DNA of 64,000 bases, taken from Candidatus Woesebacteria bacterium RBG_16_42_24 (GTDB lineage: Bacteria > Patescibacteriota > Microgenomatia > UBA8517). The number at the start of each line of letters is the position of its first letter. The stretch's first letter is position 1. The notes beneath the pieces were generated by a model. That model saw only the letters and a program-made list of their open reading frames with translations, did no database searches and was not told where the DNA came from. Positions 4,517-62,310 of the stretch are shown here, piece by piece. The stretch is from positions 4,965-68,964 of the forward strand of contig MGFX01000002.1 of assembly GCA_001792115.1 (NCBI GenBank). The letters run 5' to 3'. A program made the translations under genes and the position numbers.

Positions 4517-4604
4517 AAAACTATTTTATCACGTCGACAGTGTTTGATTCTCTGTGGGGGTCATACGCACTCTGAAGATAATTGAAGTTTCAGGCTAAAT
4601 ATCT

Positions 4605-4659: not shown

Positions 4660-5127
4660 TCACTCGGAGGCATCTTGTCTAGCTAAATCAACAGGCTTTA
4701 CATCTCTAACTACCTGCTCCAGAAAAGTTTGGTCTTTTTCTTTTAGTTCTATTCCTGAATGCATATCCCCAAGAAGTTTTCCTACACGCTCTACTGTTTC
4801 CTCCAAATACCTAGCAATTTCTCTTAAATCTTCTGGATGTTCTCTAGCCATCCACGCTTGCCAGGATTCATAAGCTTTTATTGCAGATTCTTCTCCTGAC
4901 ATTGCTGCTGAAGCCAGCTTTAAACCGACAATTGACTTCCTCCTTAATCCAAATGCACGCTCGAATAAATCACTGCTTTCCATTATATGCATTATACCAT
5001 CTGAGGCTATTTTGCAGGCCTTAATAGCCACACTTCGAACTCTCTGGCATAAAATAAGCTCTTTTGAGATTGATGACATCCTCCGCGGACTAAAAGTCCG
5101 CGGTTTCCTTTCAAAGGAGGATGACAT
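4660..5127 (-). CDS. Hypothetical alpha-helical protein. The N-terminus and start codon are supplied by the repeat element, so the true start is uncertain (alternative M at 5079).
   Basis: The first 16 codons, MSSSFERKPRTFSPRR, are encoded by repeat-element copy 1, and a stop lies immediately upstream. The segment CQRVRSVAIKACKIASDG weakly resembles helix 2 of four-helix-bundle proteins found in 23S rRNA intervening sequences. Confidence 0.35.
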   Translation of the reverse strand: MSSSFERKPRTFSPRRMSSISKELILCQRVRSVAIKACKIASDGIMHIMESSDLFERAFGLRRKSIVGLKLASAAMSGEESAIKAYESWQAWMAREHPEDLREIARYLEETVERVGKLLGDMHSGIELKEKDQTFLEQVVRDVKPVDLARQDASE

Positions 5128-5177
5128 ATCAGTTTCAATTCATCCGCGAATTAATAATTCGCGGTGTTCTTGAAATC
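5069..5177 (+). repeat. Structured interspersed repeat element, copy 1 (about 109 nt), containing two GC-stem hairpins
   Basis: tgatgacatcctcc-[ccgcggac taaaa gtccgcgg]-tttcctttcaaaggaggatgacatatcagtttcaattcatcc-[ccgcgaatta a taattcgcgg]-tgttcttgaaatc. This aligns with copies at 56901-57004 and 51770-51894 (the latter reverse-complemented). Confidence 0.7.
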
Positions 5178-6251: not shown

Positions 6252-6561
6252 GAATTAGTTTCCCTGTCGAAACCGGAACAGAAACTGACGGCCCAATTAT
6301 AGACGCCATTATGTGCTCTCCGACGTGGGACGGGTCGTGTGGATGGCGATATGATCCTTTTGGAAACATCTTCTCTATTGCCTCGAGAAAATCAATATCG
6401 GTTCCCGGGTCAAGGTCCATCGTTGTTAGGGCACAAGTTGTGTGCAAAATAAAAAGGTTGCAGAGTCCTTCTTTGAAATTTTCTTTAGAGACAAGAACAT
6501 TTAAATTCTCAGTGATATCAACAATTTCTTTCTTTCCTTTGGTCCTAACAGAAATTTCCAT
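6166..6561 (-). CDS. yjbQ: YjbQ/UPF0047 family protein (secondary thiamine-phosphate synthase-like)
   Basis: HTTCALTTMDLDPGTDIDFLEAIEKMFPKGSYRHPHDPSHVGEHIMASIIGPSVSVPVSTGKLILGTWQRVVLVE matches conserved YjbQ-family blocks. Confidence 0.8.
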   Translation of the reverse strand: MEISVRTKGKKEIVDITENLNVLVSKENFKEGLCNLFILHTTCALTTMDLDPGTDIDFLEAIEKMFPKGSYRHPHDPSHVGEHIMASIIGPSVSVPVSTGKLILGTWQRVVLVELSGPRERNIQVNFVKWG

Positions 6562-7040: not shown

Positions 7041-7586
7041 CTATGTGATTAATTTCTTACCAACGCGTGCTGAAGAAATTTGGCGCTCGGTGACAGATTC
7101 CAGTACGGCCTGCGGATTCGGTAAAACTTTTCCCCTAGGCCAGAAACCGAGAGAAGTTAAAACTTCGACAATAAAATTATTTTTCAGGGTTCTCAATTTC
7201 CTTTCAGACTTTAATAATCTCAAATTCTCAAGAATGTGCGAATAGAGCTCTCTATGGGGTTCGCCTTCGTGGGTAGTCCGGCCGATGACTTCCATGAAGA
7301 AATAGGCCAGCGCGGTCCTTTTGAGGTCCATTCTAATTTCCCCGAAATTATTTACCGTCTCGACCTCCGTGAGTATATCAAGACTTTTTCCCCGACTGGC
7401 CTGAAATTTGATTTGGGAAAAAACCTCGAGGTGTCCCCGTTTTCTACTGGTTAGCTTTCGTACCCCCTTAGCCAAGACTACAATCCTTCCGTGACTTTTG
7501 GTCAGGATTGAAATGATTCTGTCTGCTTCGGAGTAGCTACGTCTGGCAAGAACTATTCCCTCATCCGAGTATCTTCTGGGTGTCAC
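7041..7586 (-). CDS. recO: DNA repair protein RecO (short form)
   Basis: N-terminal OB-fold signature EGIVLARRSYSEADRIISILTKSHGRIVVLAKGVRKLTSRKRGHLEVFS. The size is typical of reduced genomes. Confidence 0.7.
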   Translation of the reverse strand: MTPRRYSDEGIVLARRSYSEADRIISILTKSHGRIVVLAKGVRKLTSRKRGHLEVFSQIKFQASRGKSLDILTEVETVNNFGEIRMDLKRTALAYFFMEVIGRTTHEGEPHRELYSHILENLRLLKSERKLRTLKNNFIVEVLTSLGFWPRGKVLPNPQAVLESVTERQISSARVGKKLIT

Positions 7587-25974: not shown

Positions 25975-26810
25975 TTAACTTGCTTTCTTAGAAGTACAAG
26001 TTCCAAGATTCCCAAAAATATTCCAAAATCATAAATCAGCTTAAAAACTACGAAGGCTGGTTGCCAATGAACTACCGATTTGAAAATCCCCACGAGTAGA
26101 GAGACGGGAAATGAGGCTCTTAAAAGTCCCACGCAGTAACCAAGAAATCCAAGTTTATACTTTCTTTTTCCAACCCAACGAGCGTGGCCAAAAACTTCTG
26201 TCAGGCCCGAGGGGTTTTTATGATAAAAAATTGCGCCTTTAGCAGAATCGGCCATATATCCCAGCTTTTCATACAGGCTATAATCGTCTGTATAGCCTCC
26301 TGGGGTAAACCCTCCTACCTTATCAAATTCGGATTTAAGAATCGCTCTAAAAACCTTTTGCTTATCGGGATAGTATTTGGGATGCCTTCTTCTTTCTTCC
26401 CAATTTTGGTTTATGTTCCAACACCTTGCCCAAACGTTTTCCCAGTTACTCACGTATTCGTATTTTGAAAAAGTTCCCTTAGTCTTTCCAGAAAGAATTG
26501 GCTTAACTAGATTTTTCAGAAAATTTTTGTCGAAAGTCATGTCAGCGTCGACAAAAACTAAAATCTCGCCATTTGCATGTTCTGCACCCAAATTCCTCGC
26601 CGCACCCGGCCCCTTATGTTGCTCTCGCAACAATTTAGGGTTTAGGGTTTTGGGGTTAGAATTTCCGACAACACCGGGAGTGTTGTCGGTAGATCCATCG
26701 TCGACAACTATTATTTCGAAATCGTGATATGTTTGTTTGGACAGAGATTCTAAACACTCTCCTATCACGTCTTCTTCGTTGTATGTGGGAATAATTACTG
26801 TAACTTTCAT
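25971..26810 (-). CDS. Glycosyltransferase family 2 with C-terminal TM helices
   Basis: VTVIIPTYNEEDVIGECLESLSKQTYHDFEIIVVDDGSTDNT...ILVFVDADMTF. Confidence 0.8.
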   Translation of the reverse strand: MKVTVIIPTYNEEDVIGECLESLSKQTYHDFEIIVVDDGSTDNTPGVVGNSNPKTLNPKLLREQHKGPGAARNLGAEHANGEILVFVDADMTFDKNFLKNLVKPILSGKTKGTFSKYEYVSNWENVWARCWNINQNWEERRRHPKYYPDKQKVFRAILKSEFDKVGGFTPGGYTDDYSLYEKLGYMADSAKGAIFYHKNPSGLTEVFGHARWVGKRKYKLGFLGYCVGLLRASFPVSLLVGIFKSVVHWQPAFVVFKLIYDFGIFLGILELVLLRKQVK

Positions 26811-37090: not shown

Positions 37091-37170
37091 TAGACAAATT
37101 GTAGCTTAGCCGAAGATTATTTTCTAATTTATGTCGACGACTTAGCTGATTAGGTATTAGAAATTAGTAA

Positions 37171-37914
37171 TTAGGAATTGTTACGATACTTGAAGCCTGT
37201 GCCCTTTTTAAGGAGTAACTTAACCCCCTCCTTCAAATAGTAAAAAGGGCTATCCAGATAAAAAAGAACAGATCCTCTTTTTAACTTGCTTTTATTTCTT
37301 TTAACAAAACCTTTGTATTCATGAATTAATTCATGAAAGTGAAGGGTCCGAACTTCCTTATGGTCAATTTTGTCTTCCCAATAATACACAAACTCCTCCT
37401 CTCCGCTCCAATGGGTAAAATGGAAGTTGCTTGAGTAAAGAAGTGGGTAGTTTTTTGGGACAACGTAGATCACCTCACCCTTTTCATAGAATAACCATTT
37501 ATGATGAGCCTGTCCCGGCACTCTTCTTGAACCTGTAAGCCAGTCAGTGAAGTTTATGTGGGAAAAAACCATATCGGCGCCCATTGAAGGTGTAACAATA
37601 AGTCCTCTTTTTGCAACCCTAGACATCTCTTCGATTGCCAAAAATGGATAGCTCAAATCCTCGAGCGTGTGTGAACATATACAAAAATCGAATTCTTTAT
37701 CAGCAAAGGGCAGTTTATCCCTAGTTACATCTACTTTGACGAAATTTTTAGCTCTAAGTTTAGTTGGACCATATGGCGCTTCTTCTGGACTGATAATATC
37801 TACGAGCGTGTCCACCCGGATTTCGTCTCTTTGTCTCATGCTTCCTCCAATATCCAAAATTCTATCTTTGGGTTTTATTTTGAAGCGGGAAATTACCTCT
37901 CTATCGCTAATCAT
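37171..37914 (-). CDS. Class I SAM-dependent methyltransferase
   Basis: ILDIGGSMRQ...FDFCICSHTLEDLSYPFLAIEEMSRVAKRGLIVTPS. Overlaps the upstream membrane gene by 4 nt. Confidence 0.6.
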   Translation of the reverse strand: MISDREVISRFKIKPKDRILDIGGSMRQRDEIRVDTLVDIISPEEAPYGPTKLRAKNFVKVDVTRDKLPFADKEFDFCICSHTLEDLSYPFLAIEEMSRVAKRGLIVTPSMGADMVFSHINFTDWLTGSRRVPGQAHHKWLFYEKGEVIYVVPKNYPLLYSSNFHFTHWSGEEEFVYYWEDKIDHKEVRTLHFHELIHEYKGFVKRNKSKLKRGSVLFYLDSPFYYLKEGVKLLLKKGTGFKYRNNS

Positions 37915-39389
37915 CTATTTTTCCTGACTAGAAGAACTGCCCGAGCGGGTTCTCTCTCGTATGTCTCATCAGACAAAATCATAAATTCCTTCTTAAATTC
38001 AAAGTTACTGACAATAAATTTATCCTCGATATCTTTTGGGTTCTCAAAAGCTTGCCTCCACTCGGGTCCCATAAAATAGTTTTCATCGTCTATTAAATAA
38101 CTCGTGAGAAATATTGCATCAAACGGGTTTTTTTCTGCCTCAATATCTAGCTGGTCCGGTTTTAAAGGAAACCAGACTGTCTTTCTTTCCCCATACCAAC
38201 TTCCCCATGTGTCAAGATTGGTAACAATGACGTCTTCTGGGCTGGTATTTTCTCTTAGCGTCCTGGAAAGGGTGACGTAAACGGGGGGTTTTCCTTTGTT
38301 GACAATCTTTGCTTTGTGCCTTGAATCAAGAAAAATGACTCCGAGGGTTTGGCCAACTACAAAAACAAAGACCAGCAAACTCGAAACCAGAATTCTGGCT
38401 TTGTTTTTGTTAATACCTAAACCCAAAATCCTAAATCCTAATCCCTCCACTATCCAAACCAGCGTCGCTACTGCGAAAAGATAAACCAACGGAACCACTG
38501 GGTGAAGATATCTAAAAAGGGGAATAGTTAAGGCTGCAACTAAAAAAGTAGCTACAACCATAAAAATTGTTGAAATCTTTAGATAGTTTTCTATTTTGTT
38601 TTTTGACCACATAAATAACCCAATTATAAAAAGCGCCCACATATAGGGCGAGGTAATCTGGGGTAGAAGTTTGTAGAAATTATAGAGATTATAAAAAACC
38701 TTTTTAAATATAGCAATTATGTTTGTTTCCTGCACCGCTCCTCTTAGGGCATCCGATGTGGCCTGACCAGGCAGGTGTTGGGTAACTGCAAATATTCCTT
38801 GCTTGGAAATGAAGAAGTATAGTGCCGATCCTGCGACGAAAGTCGCTATGAAATAACTCAGTGCCTTTTTTATAGGAAAGTTAAGAAGAAAAAATAAAAA
38901 TAAAAGTCCAAAAATATAAATAATCGCCTGAGCGCGTGTGAAATAAACTAAAACTAAAACTAAAAATCCTAAGATATTGGCCCATTTCCTCCTCATGATA
39001 AAAAGATAGGCCCCAAGAATTATCTCGCATGCAAATAATGTCTCGGAAGCGCCGCTTGTGGCATATTCCAGGAAATTTACATTGAAAGCAACTGAGATTG
39101 CTCCCAATAATCCTACGAGCTGTCCCCACAACTTCTTGCCAAGAAGATAAGTTGTCAAAACGAGGAGTAGATAAAAGAAGGATGAGGTTGCTATAACGCT
39201 TAAATCCGAAATTCCGAATATCTTAAAGAATCCCGCAATTGCCAAGGGCATACCTGGTTGTATCACTTGTGCGTTATTTGCACCCCAAAAATTGAAGGAC
39301 GAGGAAAACTCATTCCCTTGAACAATACTTCTGGCTATATCGGCATATTTAGCACCATCTGAAAACGTCAAATAAAGATGGAACATCAT
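37911..39389 (-). CDS. Polytopic membrane protein, possible GT-C glycosyltransferase
   Basis: N-proximal SDGAKYADIARSIVQG followed by 11 or more TM helices. Confidence 0.4.
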   Translation of the reverse strand: MMFHLYLTFSDGAKYADIARSIVQGNEFSSSFNFWGANNAQVIQPGMPLAIAGFFKIFGISDLSVIATSSFFYLLLVLTTYLLGKKLWGQLVGLLGAISVAFNVNFLEYATSGASETLFACEIILGAYLFIMRRKWANILGFLVLVLVYFTRAQAIIYIFGLLFLFFLLNFPIKKALSYFIATFVAGSALYFFISKQGIFAVTQHLPGQATSDALRGAVQETNIIAIFKKVFYNLYNFYKLLPQITSPYMWALFIIGLFMWSKNKIENYLKISTIFMVVATFLVAALTIPLFRYLHPVVPLVYLFAVATLVWIVEGLGFRILGLGINKNKARILVSSLLVFVFVVGQTLGVIFLDSRHKAKIVNKGKPPVYVTLSRTLRENTSPEDVIVTNLDTWGSWYGERKTVWFPLKPDQLDIEAEKNPFDAIFLTSYLIDDENYFMGPEWRQAFENPKDIEDKFIVSNFEFKKEFMILSDETYEREPARAVLLVRKNR

Positions 39390-51769: not shown

Positions 51770-51894
51770 GCATTCGAGAAGACTGCCGATCTTCGGTCGG
51801 GAGATGAACCTGCCTGCCGGCAAGGCTGGTTGAACGCTGATATGTCATCCTCCTTTAGAGGGAACCCCATTCAAAGCGGGGAGGATGTCATAAA
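51770..51894 (-). repeat. Structured interspersed repeat element, copy 3 (about 125 nt, minus orientation), in the intergenic region
   Basis: The reverse complement reads tttatgacatcctccccgctttgaatggggttccctctaaaggaggatgacatatcagcgttcaacc...ttctcgaatgc, which aligns end to end with copy 2. Confidence 0.7.
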
Positions 51895-51933: not shown

Positions 51934-53430
51934 TTAATATCCCAGAAATTGTCGCGATTCAATCGGCCAGGTATTTCTTCCGAAATCACCCTTAAAACGT
52001 TTGTATTCCGCTGACAATTTGTTATTCCAGAAAACCTTAAAATAGTTTTGGTCAGATAAGGTTACCTTTAAAATCTCCGTCGGGCTCCAGGGTAAATCAT
52101 TGTCTTCGTCGGTATCGTAAAAGGCTATGGTTTTATATTTCTCAAGAGTCTCGGCGTTTTCGAGAAAATAATTGTGAACCCTTTTGGCAGTTTGGGCACC
52201 CTTAGTAATCCAATTGGTTTCGGCCGTTAAGTTCAGTGTCAAAACTGAAAGGATCAGCCAGATAGCTAAAAAACTGAATATGGCTAGTGGTTTGTGATTA
52301 GTGACTAGTGAATAAGAAATGAAGACTACTACCCCCATGAGGGGAAGGGTGAGATAGAAGGTGAATTTGTGAAGAGGAAGAAAAAGGACGGGAAGAAGGG
52401 TAATTAGGAACCAAGAGGTTCCAAAAATTACTAATTTTAAATTTCTAATTTCTAATTTTCTTATGCTAGAAGAAAAAAACTTGTAAACAGCAGCTGACAA
52501 CAGAAACAACTCCAATAAAAACAAGGTTAAAATAGGAATAATTTGGCTGGACCAATACTTAAAAAGGTTGGGGTTGAAGTGAAAGCCGGGGCCAACAAAA
52601 TCAACAAGCATTTCAGGCAAATTAAATGACCAAAGTCCATACCAGCCGAGGGTATTTACCGCCCTTTTAACTGAGAAATCCCAAACATAGCTATCCCCCG
52701 TGGCAAAGCCATAATAAGCAAACCTAAAGTAAAAATAAAAAATCAAAATTAAAAAATAGGGAGCGGTACTAGCAATTAATCGATTGATCGGTAGGGGAGC
52801 AGATTTCTTAGTTAACTTGAAAAAAATATATATTAGAAACAGACAGAGTGGCAAAACGACGGCGGTTTCTTTGGATAATAAACTTAAGACAAAAAACAAA
52901 AGACTTAATAGTAAATAATTTGTTGACGACTTATGCAGAAATTTGATGAAAGATAAAACCGAAAGAAGGAAAAATAAAGCTAGCCCAAGTTCTTGAAATG
53001 CGCCCAAGAAATAAAGATGGCCGAAATGAGTAGCGGAGGTAGCATATAGGAAAGCTGCGAGGAGAGAAATGTGATTGGTGAATGGTGATTTGTGATCGTT
53101 AAGTAATAACAAACAGAACTTGTAAACGAGAAAGATAACCGCGAAGAAAATGAAAAACGAAATTACATGAAGACCTAATGGATTTAAGTTAAAAATTTTC
53201 CGAGCCAGAAAATAGAAAACCTGGGTAGTAAGTGGTCTATACATTCCCAATCCGTCGGGGCCTCTAGTCAGATTAAAAAAGTTTAGAAATTCCTTTACAG
53301 AGTTTGCTTGGGAAATTTTTAGAAGAAAAAAGTCGTCGTTGGTGTAAAAAGTAGACAACGAGGGAAGAAAAAGAAAAAAAGAAATTAAGAAAATAAGAAA
53401 TAAATACTTGGTAGACAAAGAAAATTTCAT
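51934..53430 (-). CDS. GT-C fold membrane glycosyltransferase-like (PMT/ArnT-like)
   Basis: N-proximal FYTNDDFFLLKISQ DD motif, about 12 TMs. Contains (AATTTCT)n heptamer repeats at about 52439-52458 and GTGATT-type repeats at 52291-52316 and 53071-53098. Confidence 0.5.
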   Translation of the reverse strand: MKFSLSTKYLFLIFLISFFLFLPSLSTFYTNDDFFLLKISQANSVKEFLNFFNLTRGPDGLGMYRPLTTQVFYFLARKIFNLNPLGLHVISFFIFFAVIFLVYKFCLLLLNDHKSPFTNHISLLAAFLYATSATHFGHLYFLGAFQELGLALFFLLSVLSFIKFLHKSSTNYLLLSLLFFVLSLLSKETAVVLPLCLFLIYIFFKLTKKSAPLPINRLIASTAPYFLILIFYFYFRFAYYGFATGDSYVWDFSVKRAVNTLGWYGLWSFNLPEMLVDFVGPGFHFNPNLFKYWSSQIIPILTLFLLELFLLSAAVYKFFSSSIRKLEIRNLKLVIFGTSWFLITLLPVLFLPLHKFTFYLTLPLMGVVVFISYSLVTNHKPLAIFSFLAIWLILSVLTLNLTAETNWITKGAQTAKRVHNYFLENAETLEKYKTIAFYDTDEDNDLPWSPTEILKVTLSDQNYFKVFWNNKLSAEYKRFKGDFGRNTWPIESRQFLGY

Positions 53431-54277: not shown

Positions 54278-54658
54278 TTACTTATTGAATTTTTGAATTT
54301 GTTTGGAGTTTAGAGTTTTGGATTTAGAATTTATTAATCCTTTTAGGGCTTCTTGTCTAATAAAACGCTCTAGTTTTTTTTCAATTCTTTTGGTTCTTAC
54401 ATAAGCTATCGCGACCATTGTAATCACCAAGACGAAGCCTCCCAGAACCAGAAGATCCAGAAGTCTTGAAATGAAAAAGGTCTGTGCAAAGGCTCGAAGC
54501 GTATCCGGGAAAAGAACCATGAATGAAGCCGCGCCCCATGCAGAAACCCATATTGATAGTTCAACCCTGTTAATTTCCTTTCGTTTGAAATTAACATAGG
54601 CAAAGTAAATCATTACAAGAGCAAAAACTACGGCCAATATTTGAAGACCGAATATCAT
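54278..54658 (-). CDS. Small membrane protein, DUF2304-like (often paired with a GT2 polyprenyl-phosphate glycosyltransferase)
   Basis: 126 aa with 3-4 TMs, and a 4-nt overlap with the downstream GT2. I recall the family pairing but cannot verify it here. Confidence 0.4.
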   Translation of the reverse strand: MIFGLQILAVVFALVMIYFAYVNFKRKEINRVELSIWVSAWGAASFMVLFPDTLRAFAQTFFISRLLDLLVLGGFVLVITMVAIAYVRTKRIEKKLERFIRQEALKGLINSKSKTLNSKQIQKFNK

Positions 54659-56072: not shown

Positions 56073-57386
56073 CTAGGACACCCAATAGCCTCGCGAAAAG
56101 AGGGCGAGGGAAATTGCGGCTAAGAATAGTAATGTCAAATAAACCAACCCTTTAACCAACTTTGATTTTTTGTTAAGCCAAAGGGCCATAAGAATATAGG
56201 CGGGGAAAAGAATAAGAACATAGCGTGGGAAAGAGGAGAAACTTCCGGAAAGGGGCGGGATTAGGTATCCCGCCGCTAGAAACAAGGAATAGCCAAGTCT
56301 CAATTTAAAAAACGACCATACACCAAGGATTCCAAATATAATAGCCGAAGCTATTTCAAGATAGGTAGTAAATACTATCGGGAAATAATTGTAATTAAGG
56401 CTGGGAAGAACCTTGAAAAAATATCTATAAAAAACTTGCGGGAGAAGAATTAGAGTACTTGAGCGCTGCTGCCCAAAAATCGAAACATTATGAACGAATT
56501 CAAGCGGGTCCCCGGTTATCCTATATAAATAGTACATATAGGCCGCCAGGCCTAGAGGGATAAGAAGCAGAGAAACAATTTTTTTAAGGTTGACGGCAGT
56601 GATTAGTGAATACCCGCCAGCAACGCTTGAAGCGTAGCTTCTACGGGCTGGGTGATTGGTGAATGGTGACTTCTTGTAAAAATACTCGACTGCAATTGCC
56701 GGAACAAGTGCCAATGCGGTAATTCGGGTTGCGGTTGCAAAAGCTCCAAGAACTCCTGCAAAAATCCAGCTCCTTTTTCTTGCAAAGTAAAACGACCAAA
56801 CGATTAAGGCCAGTGTTAAGCTCTCCGTATAAAAAGCCCCGAAATAAAAAGACGTTGGAAAAAGGATTAATAAAAGAAGAGTCATCTTTGCAATATTTTC
56901 TTTATGACGTCCTCCCCGCCTTAAAAGGCGGGGTTTCCCTAAGGAGGACGACATATCAGCGTTCAATTCATCCCCACCCTCCGGGGCGAGGTTTTCTTGA
57001 ATGCTGTTATAATCAAGCCGTATAAGTTTCCACAAACCAATTAAACCTACAAGGAATGATAAGTTAGAAATAAGAAGTCCGGTAAAAGCTATCGTAATAT
57101 ATTCGGGATTTATCAAAGACGCGGCGATACGGGTGACAAGCGGGAAAAGGGGAAAAAAGAAATAGGTCAAAGGCTGATACCCTTGGTGGGCAATCGCCGC
57201 ATAGTGCTCCCCGTCAAAATTCAGCCAAGACCAAAAATAAGGATTTTTAAGATAGTTTGACAAACCTCCTCCAAGAAAATCCTTTTGAAAAGGAAAAAGG
57301 CCAGCCGCTAAAAAAACTACTCCAAAAAGAAAGAGTCTCCAGGTGACAAAACTTCCCAAAATAAATCTCCAATTATCGCCTTTCAC
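56073..57386 (-). CDS. Polytopic membrane protein (GT-C/DUF2029-like) carrying two in-frame repeat insertions
   Basis: A hydrophobic protein interrupted by the hydrophilic stretch NSIQENLAPEGGDELNADMSSSLGKPRLLRRGGRHKENIAKM, encoded by repeat-element copy 2. A second segment, SPFTNHPARRSYASSVAGGYSLITAVN, is encoded between GTGATT-type direct repeats. Confidence 0.45.
   Translation of the reverse strand: MKGDNWRFILGSFVTWRLFLFGVVFLAAGLFPFQKDFLGGGLSNYLKNPYFWSWLNFDGEHYAAIAHQGYQPLTYFFFPLFPLVTRIAASLINPEYITIAFTGLLISNLSFLVGLIGLWKLIRLDYNSIQENLAPEGGDELNADMSSSLGKPRLLRRGGRHKENIAKMTLLLLILFPTSFYFGAFYTESLTLALIVWSFYFARKRSWIFAGVLGAFATATRITALALVPAIAVEYFYKKSPFTNHPARRSYASSVAGGYSLITAVNLKKIVSLLLIPLGLAAYMYYLYRITGDPLEFVHNVSIFGQQRSSTLILLPQVFYRYFFKVLPSLNYNYFPIVFTTYLEIASAIIFGILGVWSFFKLRLGYSLFLAAGYLIPPLSGSFSSFPRYVLILFPAYILMALWLNKKSKLVKGLVYLTLLFLAAISLALFSRGYWVS
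56599..56669 (+). repeat. Pair of GTGATTRGTGAAT(GGTGA) direct repeats flanking a ~40-nt insert, inside ORF 56073..57386
   Basis: gtgattagtgaata at 56599-56612 and gtgattggtgaatggtga at 56652-56669. The 18-mer also occurs identically at 53071-53088, in a different gene. Confidence 0.55.
56901..57004 (+). repeat. Structured interspersed repeat element, copy 2 (about 104 nt), inserted in frame within ORF 56073..57386
   Basis: tttatgacgtcctcc-[ccccgcc ttaaaa ggcgggg]-tttccctaaggaggacgacatatcagcgttcaattcatcc...gttttcttgaatgc. Confidence 0.7.
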
Positions 57387-57428: not shown

Positions 57429-58511
57429 CTAGCCTAGAACTTTTTTGTAAATTTCTAACGTTTCCCTGGCGGTTTTCTCCCACGAATAATTTTTAACCAA
57501 TACCTTACCTTTTTCCACCAGCTGATCCCTTAGTTCCCCGTCATTAAAAACCTGGGATATTTTATCTGCTATATCCTTGGGGTTTTTAGGGTCGGCAAAA
57601 AGACATGCTGGCTCACCAATTTCAACCAAGGCCTGAGTCTTGCTTGCAACCACAGGACATTCGCTTGCAAAAGCCTCAAGTACAGGAAGCCCAAATCCTT
57701 CATAAAAAGAAGGCTGGCAATAAAGAGTCGCTAAATTATAAAGACCAACTAAATCTTCATCCGGAACAAATCCTAATCTAATGACTTCTTTATCGTCTCC
57801 GTACTTTTCAAGAAGTTTAATAAGTGGTTTATTTTCCGTGTGAGTCTCGTCAAAATCAGCCGAAGCCGCCTGCTTACCGGCTATCACAAGTGGAATTCTT
57901 ACAATTTTGCAAGCTTGGATAAGTCCCAACAAATTTTTATTGTAATTAACGTCACCAACATATAATACAAAACGCTCCGGAAGACCGTAACGTTTTTGAA
58001 TTTCCAATTTCCAATGGTTCGACGGGCTCACCATCCTGAGCGAAGTCGAAGGATTTCCAATCTCCAATTTCCTGAAAATTTCGCGTGGAGCCTCGTGTAT
58101 TACTGATATTTTTTCTTCAGGTATTCCTAAAAATCTTATAATGTCTTTTTTCGACGTCTCCGATACCGCGATAATTGCATCTATCTTAGAGATCAGAAAT
58201 TTTTGAATAATAAATCTCAATTTGCCCTTAATTCCCGGCGGATAGTGCTCAGGGTATATCAGATAAATTAGGTCGTGGATGGTAATAACAGATGGAATGG
58301 ATTTGGTTAAGGGAACACTAAAAAAATAAGGGTGAAATTTTTGATAATGGACGATATCGTACTTCGTTAAATCGTTCTTGGAAGCATCGACCAAATCCAA
58401 CTCAACACCGTCTAATTTTTTGAGATGTTTAACTAGCTCTTTAGTATAAAAACCTATCCCCCTCCCCACATCACCTTCCGACATGGGTCCTGTATCAATT
58501 GCTATCCTCAT
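57429..58511 (-). CDS. Glycosyltransferase family 4, with a short insertion flanked by direct repeats
   Basis: FVLYVGDVNYNKNLLGLIQA...QPSFYEGFGLPVLEAFASECPVVASKTQALVEI. The segment IGNPSTSLRMVSPSNHWKLE is encoded between TTTCCAATTTCCAAT at 58001-58015 and TTTCCAATCTCCAATTTCC at 58054-58072. Confidence 0.8.
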   Translation of the reverse strand: MRIAIDTGPMSEGDVGRGIGFYTKELVKHLKKLDGVELDLVDASKNDLTKYDIVHYQKFHPYFFSVPLTKSIPSVITIHDLIYLIYPEHYPPGIKGKLRFIIQKFLISKIDAIIAVSETSKKDIIRFLGIPEEKISVIHEAPREIFRKLEIGNPSTSLRMVSPSNHWKLEIQKRYGLPERFVLYVGDVNYNKNLLGLIQACKIVRIPLVIAGKQAASADFDETHTENKPLIKLLEKYGDDKEVIRLGFVPDEDLVGLYNLATLYCQPSFYEGFGLPVLEAFASECPVVASKTQALVEIGEPACLFADPKNPKDIADKISQVFNDGELRDQLVEKGKVLVKNYSWEKTARETLEIYKKVLG

Positions 58512-60648: not shown

Positions 60649-62310
60649 CTAATTAGCTACAGCCTCGAAATAAAGATATCCGTTTGTCCCGTATATCCTT
60701 TTAACAATATTTGCCTCATTCGGTATTTCCTCGTCGGTTCCTACAATTAAACTCCCGGGGTTTTGGGGTTTAATAGTGTCAAAATCTATCGGCACAAATT
60801 CGTATTTGCCAAAACTTCTGACTGTTGAAAAGCCATATTTATCTTTTGCCGTAAGCGTATGTTCCAACTGAAACTTTTGGGGTGGGTATTTTAAATAAAA
60901 AAGGAAAAGAATATAAGGCTGGTCGTAGCGATCAGTAACTATTATCTTCTGGTTCGCTTTCTCCTTAGTATAGCTTACCAACTCCTTTACCCCATACTGC
61001 GATGAGAAGGGAAACTCCTTAGCCATATGGACCCAATACATATGCTGATACCTGGCAAAACCCCAGATTATCAAGACCCCAAGCGCCAAATAACCCCATA
61101 ATCGAATTTTCCTTAGATTGTTAAGCCATGAAAGGGTTGTCATAAGACCATATGCACTGATTACAGTTAATGGAATCGCCATATTTTGGGCCCTTAGGGC
61201 GTGGGGAGACTGAAAAGTCAACGCCGAAGCGGTTGGAGCCAACAAAAGCCACACTAAAATCACTCCCCAACCCTGCCTGCCGGCAGGCAGGCTTTTAGAA
61301 CTCTTGGCAATTGCCAAAAGACCGACAATCAAGAAAAGTATGTCAAATAAATACATCTGCCCCGTTTCGGGAACCTTATCCCTCTCAATGGCGTCTCCCG
61401 TAAGGAAAAGGAATTCTCCCCAGAAATGCTGCGAATAGTTTTGGGCAAAGGCCAATGAGTAATTAACCACCTTGTTGTGAATGGCTTTAGGGACAAAAGC
61501 CAAATAGTCTTGGTGCTCTCCGCGCTGCTCGTTAATCCTCGAAAGAGGCCCGGGATCCGCAAAAAGGCCGACCCCTGCAACCCTTGAACCCACCTCCCCT
61601 TTCGCAATATCAAAACCCAAGGGGGCAAGTAAAATTAATGCTGCAATTCCTGAAATAATAAAGGATTTAATGTCTGGACGGATTTCTTTACGGTAAATAA
61701 GACCCAAACCAATGACTAGTAAGGGCACAACTACCCTTGCGGCGTGGTAAGTATATAGGGACAGTACAAAGCTGATAGTACATAGGGCATAGTAGTTTGG
61801 ATTTTTAAGCCCTTTCAAATACAGTAAAAGACCAAGGCTAATAAAAAAAGTGGCTACATTTACTTCCCAACCGCCTCTCGAGAAGTGTATGTGCCAGGGC
61901 GAGATTGCAAGGAAAAGCGCTGCAAACTCGCCAATTTCCAATTTCCAATTTCCAATTTCCAATTTTTTATCCGGAAACAGTTCTCTACACAGAAAATAAA
62001 CGACCAGAACGGTGGCAACGCCAAAGAGGGCTCCCGGAATTCGGACTGCGAGCTCACTTAGTCCTAATACTTTTACAAATGGCAAAACTAAATAGAAATA
62101 GAGACCAGGTTTGTAATCGTTGAACGACTGAAAATGGATTGGCCAGGCATTTCCATGCTCGTCTTTGCCAGTTTCGATTAGAGAGTAGGCATTATAGCCA
62201 ATTGCCGCCTCATCGGCATTAAGTGCTGGATAGGAACCAAGTCTCCAAAACCGTAAAAAAGAGGCTAACAGCAATATTAAAAACAGTAGTAACTTTCTTT
62301 TTCTTAACAT
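60649..62310 (-). CDS. GT-C fold glycosyltransferase, PMT_2 family (bacterial dolichyl/polyprenyl-phosphate-mannose protein-mannosyltransferase-like)
   Basis: FLRFWRLGSYPALNADEAAIGYNAYSLIETGKDEHGNAWP, an N-proximal DE motif. Contains (CCAATTT)4 at 61931-61958 encoding KLEIGNWKLEIG, and the 20-bp palindrome at 61274-61293. Confidence 0.65.
   Translation of the reverse strand: MLRKRKLLLFLILLLASFLRFWRLGSYPALNADEAAIGYNAYSLIETGKDEHGNAWPIHFQSFNDYKPGLYFYLVLPFVKVLGLSELAVRIPGALFGVATVLVVYFLCRELFPDKKLEIGNWKLEIGEFAALFLAISPWHIHFSRGGWEVNVATFFISLGLLLYLKGLKNPNYYALCTISFVLSLYTYHAARVVVPLLVIGLGLIYRKEIRPDIKSFIISGIAALILLAPLGFDIAKGEVGSRVAGVGLFADPGPLSRINEQRGEHQDYLAFVPKAIHNKVVNYSLAFAQNYSQHFWGEFLFLTGDAIERDKVPETGQMYLFDILFLIVGLLAIAKSSKSLPAGRQGWGVILVWLLLAPTASALTFQSPHALRAQNMAIPLTVISAYGLMTTLSWLNNLRKIRLWGYLALGVLIIWGFARYQHMYWVHMAKEFPFSSQYGVKELVSYTKEKANQKIIVTDRYDQPYILFLFYLKYPPQKFQLEHTLTAKDKYGFSTVRSFGKYEFVPIDFDTIKPQNPGSLIVGTDEEIPNEANIVKRIYGTNGYLYFEAVAN
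61274..61293 (+). repeat. 20-bp perfect palindrome CCTGCCTGCCGGCAGGCAGG inside the PMT_2 ORF. A near-copy lies at 51811-51826 in the intergenic region.
   Basis: It is its own reverse complement. 51809-51826 reads acctgcctgccggcaagg, a 16/17 match, immediately adjacent to repeat-element copy 3. Confidence 0.6.
61931..61958 (+). repeat. Heptanucleotide tandem repeat (CCAATTT)x4 within a coding sequence
   Basis: ccaatttccaatttccaatttccaattt. A unit length of 7 is not a multiple of 3, so a change of one unit would frameshift the PMT_2 gene. Confidence 0.8.

What the first reader, a model, noticed from the sequence alone, without database searches (positions are those of the whole stretch)
56599..56669. 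Identical 18-bp GTGATTGGTGAATGGTGA sequence in two unrelated genes, with a repeat-flanked 40-nt coding insert
gtgattggtgaatggtga occurs at 53071-53088 (in gene 51934..53430) and at 56652-56669 (in gene 56073..57386), encoding SPFTNH in both. Variants gtgattagtga(a/c)t occur at 56599-56612 and 52291-52316. In 56073..57386 two copies in direct orientation bracket a 40-nt GC-rich segment (cccgccagcaacgcttgaagcgtagcttctacgggctgg) that adds PARRSYASSVAGGY to the protein. This looks like a second family of small insertion elements with target-site-like direct repeats acting inside coding regions.
Basis: seen in the sequence. Interest (0 to 1): 0.5.

Follow-up and report, generated by a model that had tools for sequence, protein, structure and literature searches.

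The report
39-base hairpin element in heptamer repeats
A 39-base hairpin-forming DNA element, found almost letter-for-letter in many ultra-small (CPR/Patescibacteria) bacteria, sits inside a 7-base tandem repeat within a membrane glycosyltransferase gene and stays in frame as 13 extra codons; the two "identical 18-mers" are copies of that 7-base repeat, not part of the element.

Summary
GTGATTGGTGAATGGTGA occurs exactly twice, and a GC-rich segment splits a repeat tract in gene 56073..57386. That segment is 39 nt (56613-56651), not 40, and adds 13 residues, not 14.

The window matches Candidatus Woesebacteria RBG_16_42_24. The 18-mers are 2.5 units of a heptanucleotide tandem array (coding strand YAWTCAC). 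Period-7 arrays are about 7-fold enriched in this window and in other CPR contigs.

Orthologues give a series at this site: one TAATCAC unit, then a 5-unit array, then array plus the 39-mer. So the flanking "direct repeats" are the two halves of an existing array, not target-site duplications.

The 39-mer (called E1 here) is a dispersed element. About 40 near-identical copies turned up in metagenome contigs and Patescibacteria MAGs:
- four in heptamer arrays, always at the same unit phase;
- in tRNA T-loop DNA, including an otherwise intact tRNA-Pro;
- in a recurrent intergenic module that also has an empty site;
- nested inside related elements.

There is no target duplication, and variants carry compensatory stem changes. 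It most resembles the cyanobacterial SDR elements and REP/RPE elements. I rate it a new member of a known kind, in a new phylum. The mobilising enzyme is unknown.

The parts
56613..56651 (-). E1: 39-nt hairpin-forming insertion element. On the coding (minus) strand it reads CCAGCCCGTAGAAGCTACGCTTCAAGCGTTGCTGGCGGG and stays in frame as PARRSYASSVAGG (residues 246-258).
   Evidence: It is the single copy in the window and is absent from all 19 aligned homologues. Near-identical copies occur in 23 metagenome contigs and 10 MAG contigs. DNA fold -12.1 kcal/mol, z -4.2. Compensatory stem changes are seen across variants.
56652..56669 (-). Upstream half (in the coding sense) of the heptamer array: TCAC CATTCAC CAATCAC, encoding SPFTNH.
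   Evidence: It corresponds to units of the uninterrupted array in orthologue L001.
56599..56612 (-). Downstream half of the same heptamer array: TATTCAC TAATCAC, encoding YSLIT. TAATCAC is the ancestral seed unit.
   Evidence: L036 (P0009) has only AAAC-TAATCAC-TGCCGT at this position.
56073..57386 (-). Host gene: a membrane mannosyltransferase-like protein of 437 aa, against about 383 aa in homologues. Some sources name homologues 'Gpi18-like mannosyltransferase'.
   Evidence: It is a 100% match to hypothetical protein A2V97_00940 of Candidatus Woesebacteria bacterium RBG_16_42_24.
53071..53096 (-). Second array of the same heptamer family (ATCACAA ATCACCA TTCACCA ATCAC), encoding DHKSPFTNH in gene 51934..53430. 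It has no insert.
   Evidence: This loop is 6 residues longer than in many homologues. A subset of homologues has loops of the same length with residues that loosely resemble it (SRLTTH, SRITNN).
52294..52311 (-). Weak array-like stretch TCACTAG TCACTAA TCAC (SLVTNH) in gene 51934..53430.
   Evidence: It is a 3-mismatch match to the 18-mer. There is no length difference from homologues here.
51934..53430 (-). Second host gene: a GT39/PMT_2-like membrane glycosyltransferase, 498 aa.
58014..58052 (-). A parallel case: a different 39-nt hairpin insert (plus strand ATGGTTCGACGGGCTCACCATCCTGAGCGAAGTCGAAGG) splits an AATTTCC heptamer array (57999-58013 and 58053-58072) in GT4 gene 57429..58511. It adds about 13 residues (PSTSLRMVSPS plus junction residues). 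The boundary is ambiguous by 2 nt.

Best explanation
Two layers are superimposed.

(1) Heptamer arrays. This Woesebacteria genome, like other CPR contigs examined, is rich in short heptanucleotide tandem arrays. Many lie inside genes, in variable loops, where they are tolerated when the net length change is a multiple of three. The 18-mer is 2.5 units of one such family (coding strand YAWTCAC, giving the peptide ...PITNH/SPFTNH...SLIT). At this site the array apparently grew from a single ancestral TAATCAC unit. Slipped-strand expansion is the inferred cause.

(2) E1. A 39-nt non-autonomous DNA element then inserted precisely at a unit boundary of that array, with no target duplication. Because 39 nt is 13 codons and the frame used has no stop, the gene stays open through it as PARRSYASSVAGG, in a loop whose length varies among homologues. 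E1 is not peculiar to this gene. The same sequence sits at the same phase of other YAAYCAY arrays, in tRNA T-loop DNA (GGTTC|GAWTCC on the tRNA strand), in a recurrent intergenic module (GGCTC|GAACCAT), and inside related elements. The shared target is roughly ...WC | NAAYC. Arrays of this heptamer family present that target once per unit, which would explain why E1 is found in them.

Inferred, not shown: E1 is mobilised in trans as a single-stranded DNA hairpin by a site-specific enzyme. HUH/Y1 transposases of the IS200/IS605-RAYT type are the best precedent for target-specific insertion of hairpin elements without target duplication (own knowledge).
For: Lineage-specific insertion:
- The query is 437 aa against about 383 aa. 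The 13 residues are absent in 19 of 19 homologues.
- They are present in all three ≥99%-identical sequences of the same 90%-identity cluster (two full-length, one truncated), which come from ENA assemblies.

Array came first:
- Orthologous DNA gives a series: L036 has one TAATCAC unit, L001 has a 5-unit array, and the window has the array plus E1 exactly between units.
- Period-7 arrays number 13 in the window against 1.8 in shuffles, and 34 against 4.9 in about 235 kb of fetched loci, nearly all CPR.

E1 is a dispersed family:
- A 25-mer core has 25 exact matches in 23 metagenome contigs.
- A 21-mer core hits 10 contigs of Parcubacteria, Moraniibacteriota, Saccharibacteria and Patescibacteria MAGs, plus one chance hit.
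- A covariance model finds 34 matches in 189 kb of loci.

Precise insertion without duplication:
- L022 carries an empty site GGCTCGAACCATATTT and a filled copy on the same contig.
- In-silico excision restores an intact tRNA-Pro(CGG) with the cut between T-loop C56 and G57, in L007 and L008 and in L007 and L031. L032 carries the same flanks.

Phase and orientation in arrays:
- All four array sites (window, L002-6598, L002-1518, L018-345) share the same phase and orientation.
- A different 27-nt insert sits at the same C|YAATCA phase in L039.

Not a selected peptide:
- E1 lies in another reading frame (TQPAEATLQALLA) in TsaD.
- It is antisense in tRNA genes and lies in intergenic DNA elsewhere.

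Structure is conserved:
- 89.9% of cells are paired against 79% in shuffles (0 of 500 reach it) and 25-50% in slid controls. Four pairs change on both sides, for example CCAG/CTGG to CCTG/CAGG and GAAGC/GCTTC to GGTGC/GCACC or ATGC/GCAT.

Nested insertions occur in L016, L019 and L027.
Against: - No mobilising enzyme was identified. A tblastn with an IS200 TnpA sequence recalled from memory found nothing in about 300 kb. This is a weak test.
- Copy number is low: one copy in this 64-kb window and 1-3 exact-core copies per representative genome. This is unlike classical REP families.
- No filled/empty polymorphism was seen within one population. All three close relatives carry E1.
- Near-identity of E1 across CPR classes could reflect selection for a function rather than recent mobility.
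- Many copies are orthologous or sit in the same repeated module, so the number of independent insertions is perhaps 12-15. The target consensus rests on those.
- The tested structure was derived from the same sequences, which inflates the paired fraction (tool caveat).
- The order 'array first, then E1' rests on one three-taxon series. Precise loss of E1 from L001 is not excluded.
- Whether the 39 nt stay in the mRNA and are translated has not been tested. Only an open frame is shown.
Confidence: 0.72

Rival explanations
1. One reading: a MITE-like element whose insertion generated the flanking GTGATT(A/G)GTGAAT direct repeats as a target-site duplication, with the 18-mer in the other gene being a second copy or footprint of the same element.
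For: Repeat-like sequence does flank the insert on both sides.
Against: - The flanks are units of a period-7 array that is uninterrupted in an orthologue.
- The same 39-mer has unrelated flanks and no duplication at T-loop, intergenic and nested sites. An empty site shows a simple junction.
- The 53071 array carries no insert.
Confidence: 0.04
2. E1 is removed at the RNA level, as a mini-intron or processed insertion. That would let it sit in tRNA, mRNA and intergenic transcripts without harm.
For: - An otherwise well-formed tRNA-Pro(CGG) keeps the insert in its T-loop in four related contigs.
- Patescibacteria are unusually intron-rich, though with group I introns (PMC13011429).
Against: - 39 nt is far too small for a self-splicing core, and there is no Rfam match.
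- In all four coding or ORF contexts it is in frame without stops, which splicing would not require.
- Its orientation is opposite in tRNA transcripts and in mRNAs, so one strand-specific RNA signal cannot serve both.
- The four tRNA-Pro contigs are closely related, so retention says little about function.
Confidence: 0.07
3. The element came first. E1 (or its enzyme) creates the flanking heptamers on insertion, or a heptamers+E1 composite moves as one unit. Uninterrupted arrays would then be footprints left after precise excision.
For: An unrelated 322-aa ORF carries nearly the same composite ...PITNH|PARRSYASGVAGG|RSLIT as the window's ...SPFTNH|PARRSYASSVAGG|YSLIT.
Against: - Arrays without any insert are far more common than arrays with one.
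- E1 occurs without heptamers at T-loop, module and nested sites.
- The arrays hosting E1 differ in sequence (CAACCAC, TAACCAT, YAATCAC).
Confidence: 0.1
4. The 13 residues are a selected protein feature, a functional loop acquired by recombination, rather than selfish or neutral DNA.
For: The insertion is kept intact in all three ≥99%-identical sequences of the same cluster.
Against: - The same DNA lies in a different reading frame in TsaD, and lies in tRNA genes and intergenic DNA.
- Conservation is at the nucleotide level, including stem covariation.
- The host loop varies in length and sequence among homologues.
Confidence: 0.03
5. Assembly or chimera artefact of a metagenome-assembled genome.
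For: The source is a MAG.
Against: - Three further sequences with the same insert are recorded from ENA assemblies.
- E1 occurs in contigs from JGI, NCBI and ENA sources in consistent contexts.
Confidence: 0.01

Closest known systems
Small dispersed repeats (SDR1-8) of Nostoc/Anabaena (Elhai et al. [quoted passage not shown] The paper is not held by the library, so its features are cited from my own memory.
   Same: Both are very small non-coding elements with a conserved hairpin supported by compensatory changes. Both are often embedded in tandem heptamer repeats, are found nested in copies of themselves, occasionally lie inside conserved genes, and have no associated transposase.
   Different: - E1 is 39 nt, against 21-27 nt for the SDRs.
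- The host is CPR/Patescibacteria, not Nostocales.
- E1 has few copies per genome but is near-identical across classes.
- E1 shows a clear preference for T-loop DNA.
- Sequence relatedness to SDR1-8 could not be tested.
REP / REPIN elements mobilised by RAYT (Y1 HUH) transposases (PMC3116915, PMC3733652).
   Same: Both are 20-40-bp imperfect palindromes without terminal inverted repeats. A G(T/C)AG motif lies 5' of the inner stem. Intragenic copies that add residues are known for REPs (PMC3733652).
   Different: - REP families usually have tens to thousands of copies per genome and are mostly extragenic, often as inverted doublets. E1 has 1-3 copies, no doublets were noticed, and most copies read GCAG, not GTAG, with the motif internal rather than an unpaired end tag.
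- No RAYT was found.
- I found no report of REPs in CPR.
Rickettsia palindromic elements (RPE; Ogata et al. 2000, own knowledge; RPE-4 and RPE-6 are mentioned in PMC3733652).
   Same: Palindromic selfish DNA inserted in frame into protein-coding genes and into RNA genes. The host proteins remain intact.
   Different: RPE-1 is about 100-150 bp. The sequences and the host phylum are different. RPEs have no link to heptamer arrays.
Heptanucleotide tandem repeats: cyanobacterial STRR (own knowledge) and TAACTGA repeats of Beggiatoaceae, Cyanobacteria and Bacteroidetes (PMC4679880).
   Same: Short arrays (2-6 units) of a few heptamer families scattered through the genome. According to the Introduction of PMC4679880, heptamers were the most abundant long simple-sequence-repeat class in most genomes surveyed.
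   Different: Those arrays are mainly intergenic. Here most lie within ORFs, in protein loops and tails. The unit sequences differ (YAWTCAC, AAATTGG, TTTAGGG). The host is CPR.
IS200/IS605-family single-strand transposition (own knowledge).
   Same: Insertion next to a short specific target without target duplication. These elements depend on DNA hairpins rather than terminal inverted repeats.
   Different: Those elements carry two distinct subterminal hairpins and, when autonomous, a tnpA gene. E1 is a single 39-nt hairpin, and no tnpA was detected.
Archaeal BHB tRNA introns at non-canonical positions, including the T-loop, proposed to transpose between tRNA genes (Fujishima et al. 2010, own knowledge).
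   Same: A short, highly similar insert at T-loop positions of tRNA genes.
   Different: The host is bacterial and is not known to have a splicing endonuclease. The same element also lies in frame in ORFs, in the opposite orientation. A BHB motif was not evaluated.

Membership tests
SDR-type very small mobile repeats (Elhai 2008) | Dispersed, near-identical copies at non-homologous sites | tested here: met
   At least 12 distinct site classes across 33 contigs. Within a single genome only 1-3 copies were seen.
SDR-type very small mobile repeats (Elhai 2008) | Embedded in tandem heptamer repeats | tested here: met
   Four array sites, all at the same phase.
SDR-type very small mobile repeats (Elhai 2008) | Conserved secondary structure with compensatory changes | tested here: met
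   89.9% of cells paired, 0 of 500 shuffles reach it, and 4 pairs change on both sides. The structure was derived from the same sequences.
SDR-type very small mobile repeats (Elhai 2008) | Copies nested within copies of the same or a related element | tested here: met
   L016 (two copies) and L027, plus related elements in L019.
SDR-type very small mobile repeats (Elhai 2008) | Size of 21-27 nt, and sequence belonging to SDR1-8 | tested here: not met
   E1 is 39 nt, so the size criterion fails. Sequence comparison with SDR1-8 was not possible because the paper is not held.
REP/REPIN (RAYT-mobilised) | 20-40-bp imperfect palindrome | tested here: met
REP/REPIN (RAYT-mobilised) | Unpaired GTAG (or CGTC) tag at one end | tested here: not met
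   The motif is internal, between the outer and inner stems. It reads GCAG in most copies. GTAG occurs only in the window copy and one L016 copy.
REP/REPIN (RAYT-mobilised) | High copy number, mostly extragenic, often as inverted doublets | tested here: not met
   One copy in 64 kb and 1-3 per representative genome. No doublets were noticed in the contexts inspected.
REP/REPIN (RAYT-mobilised) | Cognate RAYT/Y1 transposase gene in the genome | tested here: inconclusive
   No hit in about 300 kb of held sequence with a recalled IS200 TnpA query. Whole genomes were not available.
MITE | Terminal inverted repeats plus a target-site duplication; usually more than 50 bp | tested here: not met
   No duplication at the filled/empty pair or at the T-loop sites. 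The element is 39 nt.
Heptanucleotide tandem-repeat arrays (STRR-like microsatellites) | Head-to-tail copies of a 7-nt unit, more frequent than composition predicts | tested here: met
   TRF found arrays at 53071-53096 and 56651-56669. Period-7 arrays number 13 against 1.8 in shuffles and 34 against 4.9.
Self-splicing or enzyme-spliced intron | Catalytic core or a recognisable splicing motif; removal from the transcript | not testable with these tools
   No Rfam family matches E1. Removal from RNA needs transcript data.

The most novel reading that the evidence does not exclude
E1 and its relatives (36-42-nt elements with ends CCWGYCCG...CWGGCGGG, and the GGTTCGAC-type hairpins) form a so far undescribed, CPR-wide system of tiny elements. 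In this reading they are kept almost invariant across classes because a conserved host or mobile enzyme recognises them. They home to T-loop-like DNA (GGTTC|GA) and to heptamer arrays that mimic that target. They remain compatible with function even inside tRNA-Pro and essential genes such as tsaD. That would imply either RNA-level removal or an unexpected tolerance of tRNA T-loop extensions in these bacteria. In the same reading, the heptamer arrays would be actively generated landing pads rather than passive slippage products.
Probability: 0.12. Interest if true: 0.85.

Novelty: new member of a known kind. Interest (0 to 1): 0.55.

Why it matters
CPR/Patescibacteria genomes are usually described as small and streamlined. 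This work shows that they carry heptamer microsatellites inside genes and a set of sub-50-nt hairpin insertions. These insertions lengthen proteins, hide a tRNA gene from a standard tRNA finder, and nest within each other. This parallels a phenomenon I recall being described only for filamentous cyanobacteria.

Practical consequences:
- Such inserts inflate 'lineage-specific loops' in CPR proteins.
- They can mask tRNA genes, which makes tRNA sets look incomplete.
- They offer markers for recent DNA exchange between CPR classes.

Mechanistically, a 39-nt element with a definable target and clean filled/empty sites is a tractable entry point to whichever enzyme moves these smallest known mobile DNAs.

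Tried and rejected
- **Target-site duplication:** rejected on the orthologue series and the empty site.
- **Chance identity of the 18-mers:** rejected statistically. Once the heptamer array is recognised, no transposition of the 18-mer is needed to explain it. The 18-mer is absent from the other 36 loci held.
- **tRNA finders on intact loci:** they missed the interrupted tRNA. Only in-silico excision revealed it.
- **Known RNA family:** none for E1.
- **Phage vector:** no E1 core in IMG/VR contigs.
- **Y1 transposase:** none detected in held DNA with a query recalled from memory. This is a weak test.
- **Fuzzy regex search for diverged copies:** timed out. It was replaced by a Hamming scan and a covariance model.
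- **Elhai et al. 2008:** could not be read, so the SDR comparison rests on memory.
- **Stop-free frames as an adaptation:** all three forward frames of the common variant are stop-free. My rough estimate is that this would happen by chance in about a third of random 39-mers of this GC content, so I do not count it as evidence. The window's GTAG variant has a TAG in the third frame.
- **The Rhizobiaceae hit L035:** a chance match of the 21-mer only.
Full report
**Observation.** The sequence is as described. GTGATTGGTGAATGGTGA is exact at 53071-53088 and 56652-56669. Allowing three mismatches gives four matches where 0.02 are expected. Both copies lie in minus-strand genes and encode SPFTNH in the same frame. 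KSPFTNH is the only notable similarity between the two proteins. The GC-rich segment between the two repeat copies in gene 56073..57386 is 39 nt (56613-56651), not 40. It contributes 13 residues, PARRSYASSVAGG. The next residue, Y, belongs to the flanking repeat.

**Source and host genes.** Gene 56073..57386 is a 100% match to hypothetical protein A2V97_00940 of Candidatus Woesebacteria bacterium RBG_16_42_24, a CPR/Patescibacteria MAG. The neighbourhood is a run of glycosyltransferase genes. The protein is 437 aa, whereas about a hundred homologues are close to 383 aa. An alignment with 19 homologues shows two lineage-specific insertions. One is a 35-residue block. The other is the 13 residues of this finding, in a loop whose length and sequence vary among homologues.

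**What the 18-mer is.** Tandem Repeats Finder reports both copies as period-7 arrays. On the coding strand the unit is YAWTCAC.
- Period-7 arrays are the dominant repeat class here: 13 in the window against 1.8 in dinucleotide shuffles.
- In about 235 kb of fetched loci, nearly all from CPR contigs, the count is 34 against 4.9.
- Most of the listed arrays lie within ORFs, in loops or C-terminal tails, and give peptides such as KLEIGNWKLEIG, SPFTNH and PKTLNPK.

Orthologous DNA at the site of the finding forms a series:
- L036 (P0009) has a single unit, AAAC-TAATCAC-TGCCGT.
- L001 (P0005) has five units, CAATCAC CAATCAC TAATTAC CATTCAC TAATCAC, which is 21 nt longer and in frame.
- The window has TCAC CATTCAC CAATCAC [39 nt] TATTCAC TAATCAC.

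Removing the 39 nt restores perfect 7-nt periodicity. The 'direct repeats' are therefore the two halves of an existing array, not a target-site duplication. The identity of the two 18-mers follows from two arrays of one heptamer family using the same two unit variants.

In gene 51934..53430 the three array-like stretches differ:
- The first array sits in a loop six residues longer than in many homologues. Other homologues share that length with loosely similar residues.
- The second stretch shows no length change.

**What the 39-mer is.** I call it E1. It is single-copy in the window but dispersed elsewhere.
- A 25-nt core has 25 exact matches in 23 JGI or NCBI metagenome contigs.
- A 21-nt core matches 10 contigs of species-representative MAGs named Parcubacteria, Moraniibacteriota, Saccharibacteria and Patescibacteria, plus three MAGs labelled 'uncultured Bdellovibrionales'. 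There is also one Rhizobiaceae hit in which only the 21-mer matches, which I take as chance.
- Copies differ from CCAGCCCGCAGAAGCTACGCTTCAAGCGTTGCTGGCGGG at 0-2 positions, while the host genes differ by 30-50% at the protein level.

The contexts are:
(a) Heptamer arrays, four cases, always in the same orientation and exactly between units. These are the window, L002-6598 (CAACCAC array), L002-1518 (YAATCAC array) and L018-345 (TAACCAT array).
(b) tRNA T-loop DNA. In-silico excision restores a well-formed tRNA-Pro(CGG) with the cut between C56 and G57, in L007 and L008 and in L007 and L031. L032 has the same flanks. Other T-loop-like sites appear to be 3' tRNA fragments beside tRNA-His and tRNA-Arg genes.
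(c) A conserved intergenic module, GGCTC|GAACCATATTT. An empty copy of this module lies on the same contig as a filled one (L022).
(d) Nested inside related elements (L016, L027).

No site shows a target duplication. Across distinct sites the flanks approximate ...WC | NAAYC. The table is offset by one base, which I corrected by eye. YAAYCAY arrays supply this motif once per unit, and T-loop DNA supplies it as GGTTC|GA on the tRNA strand.

**Structure and relatives.** E1 folds as DNA at -12.1 kcal/mol with z = -4.2. Variants and related 36-42-nt elements share the ends CCWGYCCG...CWGGCGGG but differ in the inner stem in a compensatory way: GAAGC/GCTTC, GGTGC/GCACC, ATGC/GCAT and ATCGC/GCGAT. 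The outer stem also changes from CCAG/CTGG to CCTG/CAGG. On a 12-sequence alignment, 89.9% of cells pair, against 79% in shuffles (0 of 500 reach it) and 25-50% in slid controls. Four pairs change on both sides. The structure was read from these same sequences, so the paired fraction is somewhat inflated.

**Consequence for the host gene.** In all four ORF contexts E1 lies in its forward orientation and in frame.
- In the window and in an unrelated 322-aa ORF it is in frame as PARRSYAS(S/G)VAGG.
- In TsaD, an essential tRNA-modification enzyme, it lies in another reading frame as TQPAEATLQALLA, inside a CAACCAC array. Pfam TsaD scores 3e-54, with the match split in two stretches.

The peptide is therefore incidental. 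The three sequences that are ≥99% identical to the window protein, recorded from ENA assemblies, all keep the insert. This argues against an assembly artefact and shows that the insertion is fixed in this lineage.

**Mechanism.**
Shown:
- the insertion is precise and duplication-free;
- it occupies a recurring short target, in a fixed orientation relative to that target;
- the hairpin is conserved;
- elements nest within one another;
- E1 is distributed across CPR classes.

Inferred:
- E1 is a non-autonomous element moved in trans as single-stranded hairpin DNA. HUH/Y1 transposases (IS200/IS605, RAYT) are the best precedent for this combination of properties (own knowledge).
- Heptamer arrays act as multi-copy landing pads.
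- The arrays arise by slippage from a seed unit.

Not found:
- any transposase (a weak test);
- any copy in viral contigs;
- any Rfam family for E1.

Against an RNA-level (intron) reading:
- E1 is always in frame and stop-free in ORFs;
- it lies in opposite orientation in tRNA transcripts and in mRNAs;
- 39 nt cannot hold a catalytic core.

This reading still needs transcript data to be excluded. The retained insert in an otherwise intact tRNA-Pro is the most puzzling fact.

**Comparison with known systems.** The closest match in behaviour is the SDR families of Nostoc and Anabaena (Elhai et al. 2008). From memory, these are tiny elements embedded in heptamer repeats, nested in themselves, and with compensatory stem changes. 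E1 is longer, lives in a different phylum and has few copies per genome. The paper could not be read here.

REP/REPIN elements share the size range, the palindrome and occasional intragenic copies (PMC3733652; PMC3116915). E1 fails the tests for an end tag, high copy number and doublets. Rickettsia palindromic elements share in-frame insertion into genes. MITE membership fails, because there are no terminal inverted repeats and no target duplication. Heptamer arrays are known from cyanobacteria, Beggiatoaceae and Bacteroidetes (PMC4679880), but mainly in intergenic DNA. Literature searches found nothing on such elements in CPR. [quoted passage not shown]

**Verdict.** I rate it a new member of a known kind, an SDR/REP-like tiny hairpin element plus heptamer microsatellites, in a phylum where I found no report of it. 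Interest is moderate, about 0.55. It would be higher if the T-loop insertions prove functional or if the mobilising enzyme turns out to be new.

Noticed in passing
window 56896-57000 (same gene 56073..57386); related copies at 5102-5132 (+) and 51830-51867 (-): A second lineage-specific insertion of 105 nt (35 aa, NSIQENLAPEGG...RRGGRH) belongs to another small repeat family. That family has an inverted repeat TGACATCCTCC...GGAGGATGACA around a CCCCGCC...GGCGGGG hairpin. It gives a sub-threshold Rfam match to HgcC RNA (33.5 bits against a gathering score of 50, E 6e-6).
   Followed up: partly
window 57994-58075 (GT4 gene 57429..58511); L037-L040: A different 39-nt hairpin (ATGGTTCGACGGGCTCACCATCCTGAGCGAAGTCGAAGG) splits an AATTTCC array. 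Orthologues carry different things at the same loop: four AAATTGG units (L038), four CYAATCA units (L037), or a CYAATCA array plus a 27-nt insert at the same C|YAATCA phase as E1 (L039). L040 has no array, and its loop is the same length as in L037 and L038. Arrays of different families therefore occupy one loop without changing its length, which simple slippage does not explain.
   Followed up: partly
window 61931-61965 (gene 60649..62310): Five perfect CCAATTT units (35 nt) lie inside a large membrane protein gene and encode KLEIGNWKLEIG. A gain or loss of one unit would shift the frame, so this is a candidate slippage or phase-variation site in a surface-glycosylation cluster.
   Followed up: no
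window-wide, e.g. 26634-26659, 37156-37179, 38416-38441, 52426-52458, 54301-54333: Heptamer arrays of a few unit families (AATTTCY, TTTAGGG/GTTTAGA, GTGAWTG) are about 7-fold enriched over shuffles. The same enrichment is seen in other CPR contigs.
   Followed up: yes
L007 1798-1908, L008, L031, L032: A tRNA-Pro(CGG) gene carries reverse-complemented E1 between T-loop positions 56 and 57. ARAGORN and Rfam's tRNA model do not call it until the 39 nt are removed. It is conserved in four closely related contigs, with one base difference in the acceptor stem (C·A in L007, T-A in L031).
   Followed up: partly
L022 (about 4542-4599, 6322-6370, 7442-7460), L010, L006, L020, L023: E1's most frequent host is a conserved intergenic module of roughly 70-100 nt (GGAGAAAAACA..CGGCTC|GAACCATATTTTRAWTTTGG..). 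It recurs every 1-2 kb between small genes that look cassette-like (my reading of their translations, not tested): a RelE-like toxin/antitoxin pair, a nucleotidyltransferase-like protein, and small secreted proteins. It also collects several other tiny hairpin inserts at fixed positions. It may be an attC-like or other cassette boundary.
   Followed up: partly
L016 1251-1325 and 3212-3286; L019 905-1027; L027 5191-5260: Tiny elements are nested within related tiny elements. E1 sits inside a 36-nt relative, CCTGCCCGCAATGCTA|..|CGCATAGCGTTGCAGGCGGG. A 36-nt element sits inside a 39-nt CCTGCCCCGTAG... element. Most family members are 36, 39 or 42 nt long, that is, multiples of three.
   Followed up: partly
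L026, L028, L030, L031, L032: MAGs whose record titles say 'uncultured Bdellovibrionales' carry E1 at the same tRNA-associated sites as metagenome contigs L007, L008, L011 and L021. Either the taxonomic label is unreliable or E1 extends beyond Patescibacteria.
   Followed up: no
L006 5362-5611: A group I intron (Rfam, 74 bits) lies immediately upstream of a tRNA-Val call. This fits the reported abundance of group I introns in Patescibacteria tRNA genes.
   Followed up: no
P0242 (≥99% identical to the window protein): The first residue after E1 is D instead of Y, which implies a change in the TAT codon (most simply TAT to GAT). That is a substitution in the first codon after the element's 3' junction in a near-identical strain.
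   Followed up: no
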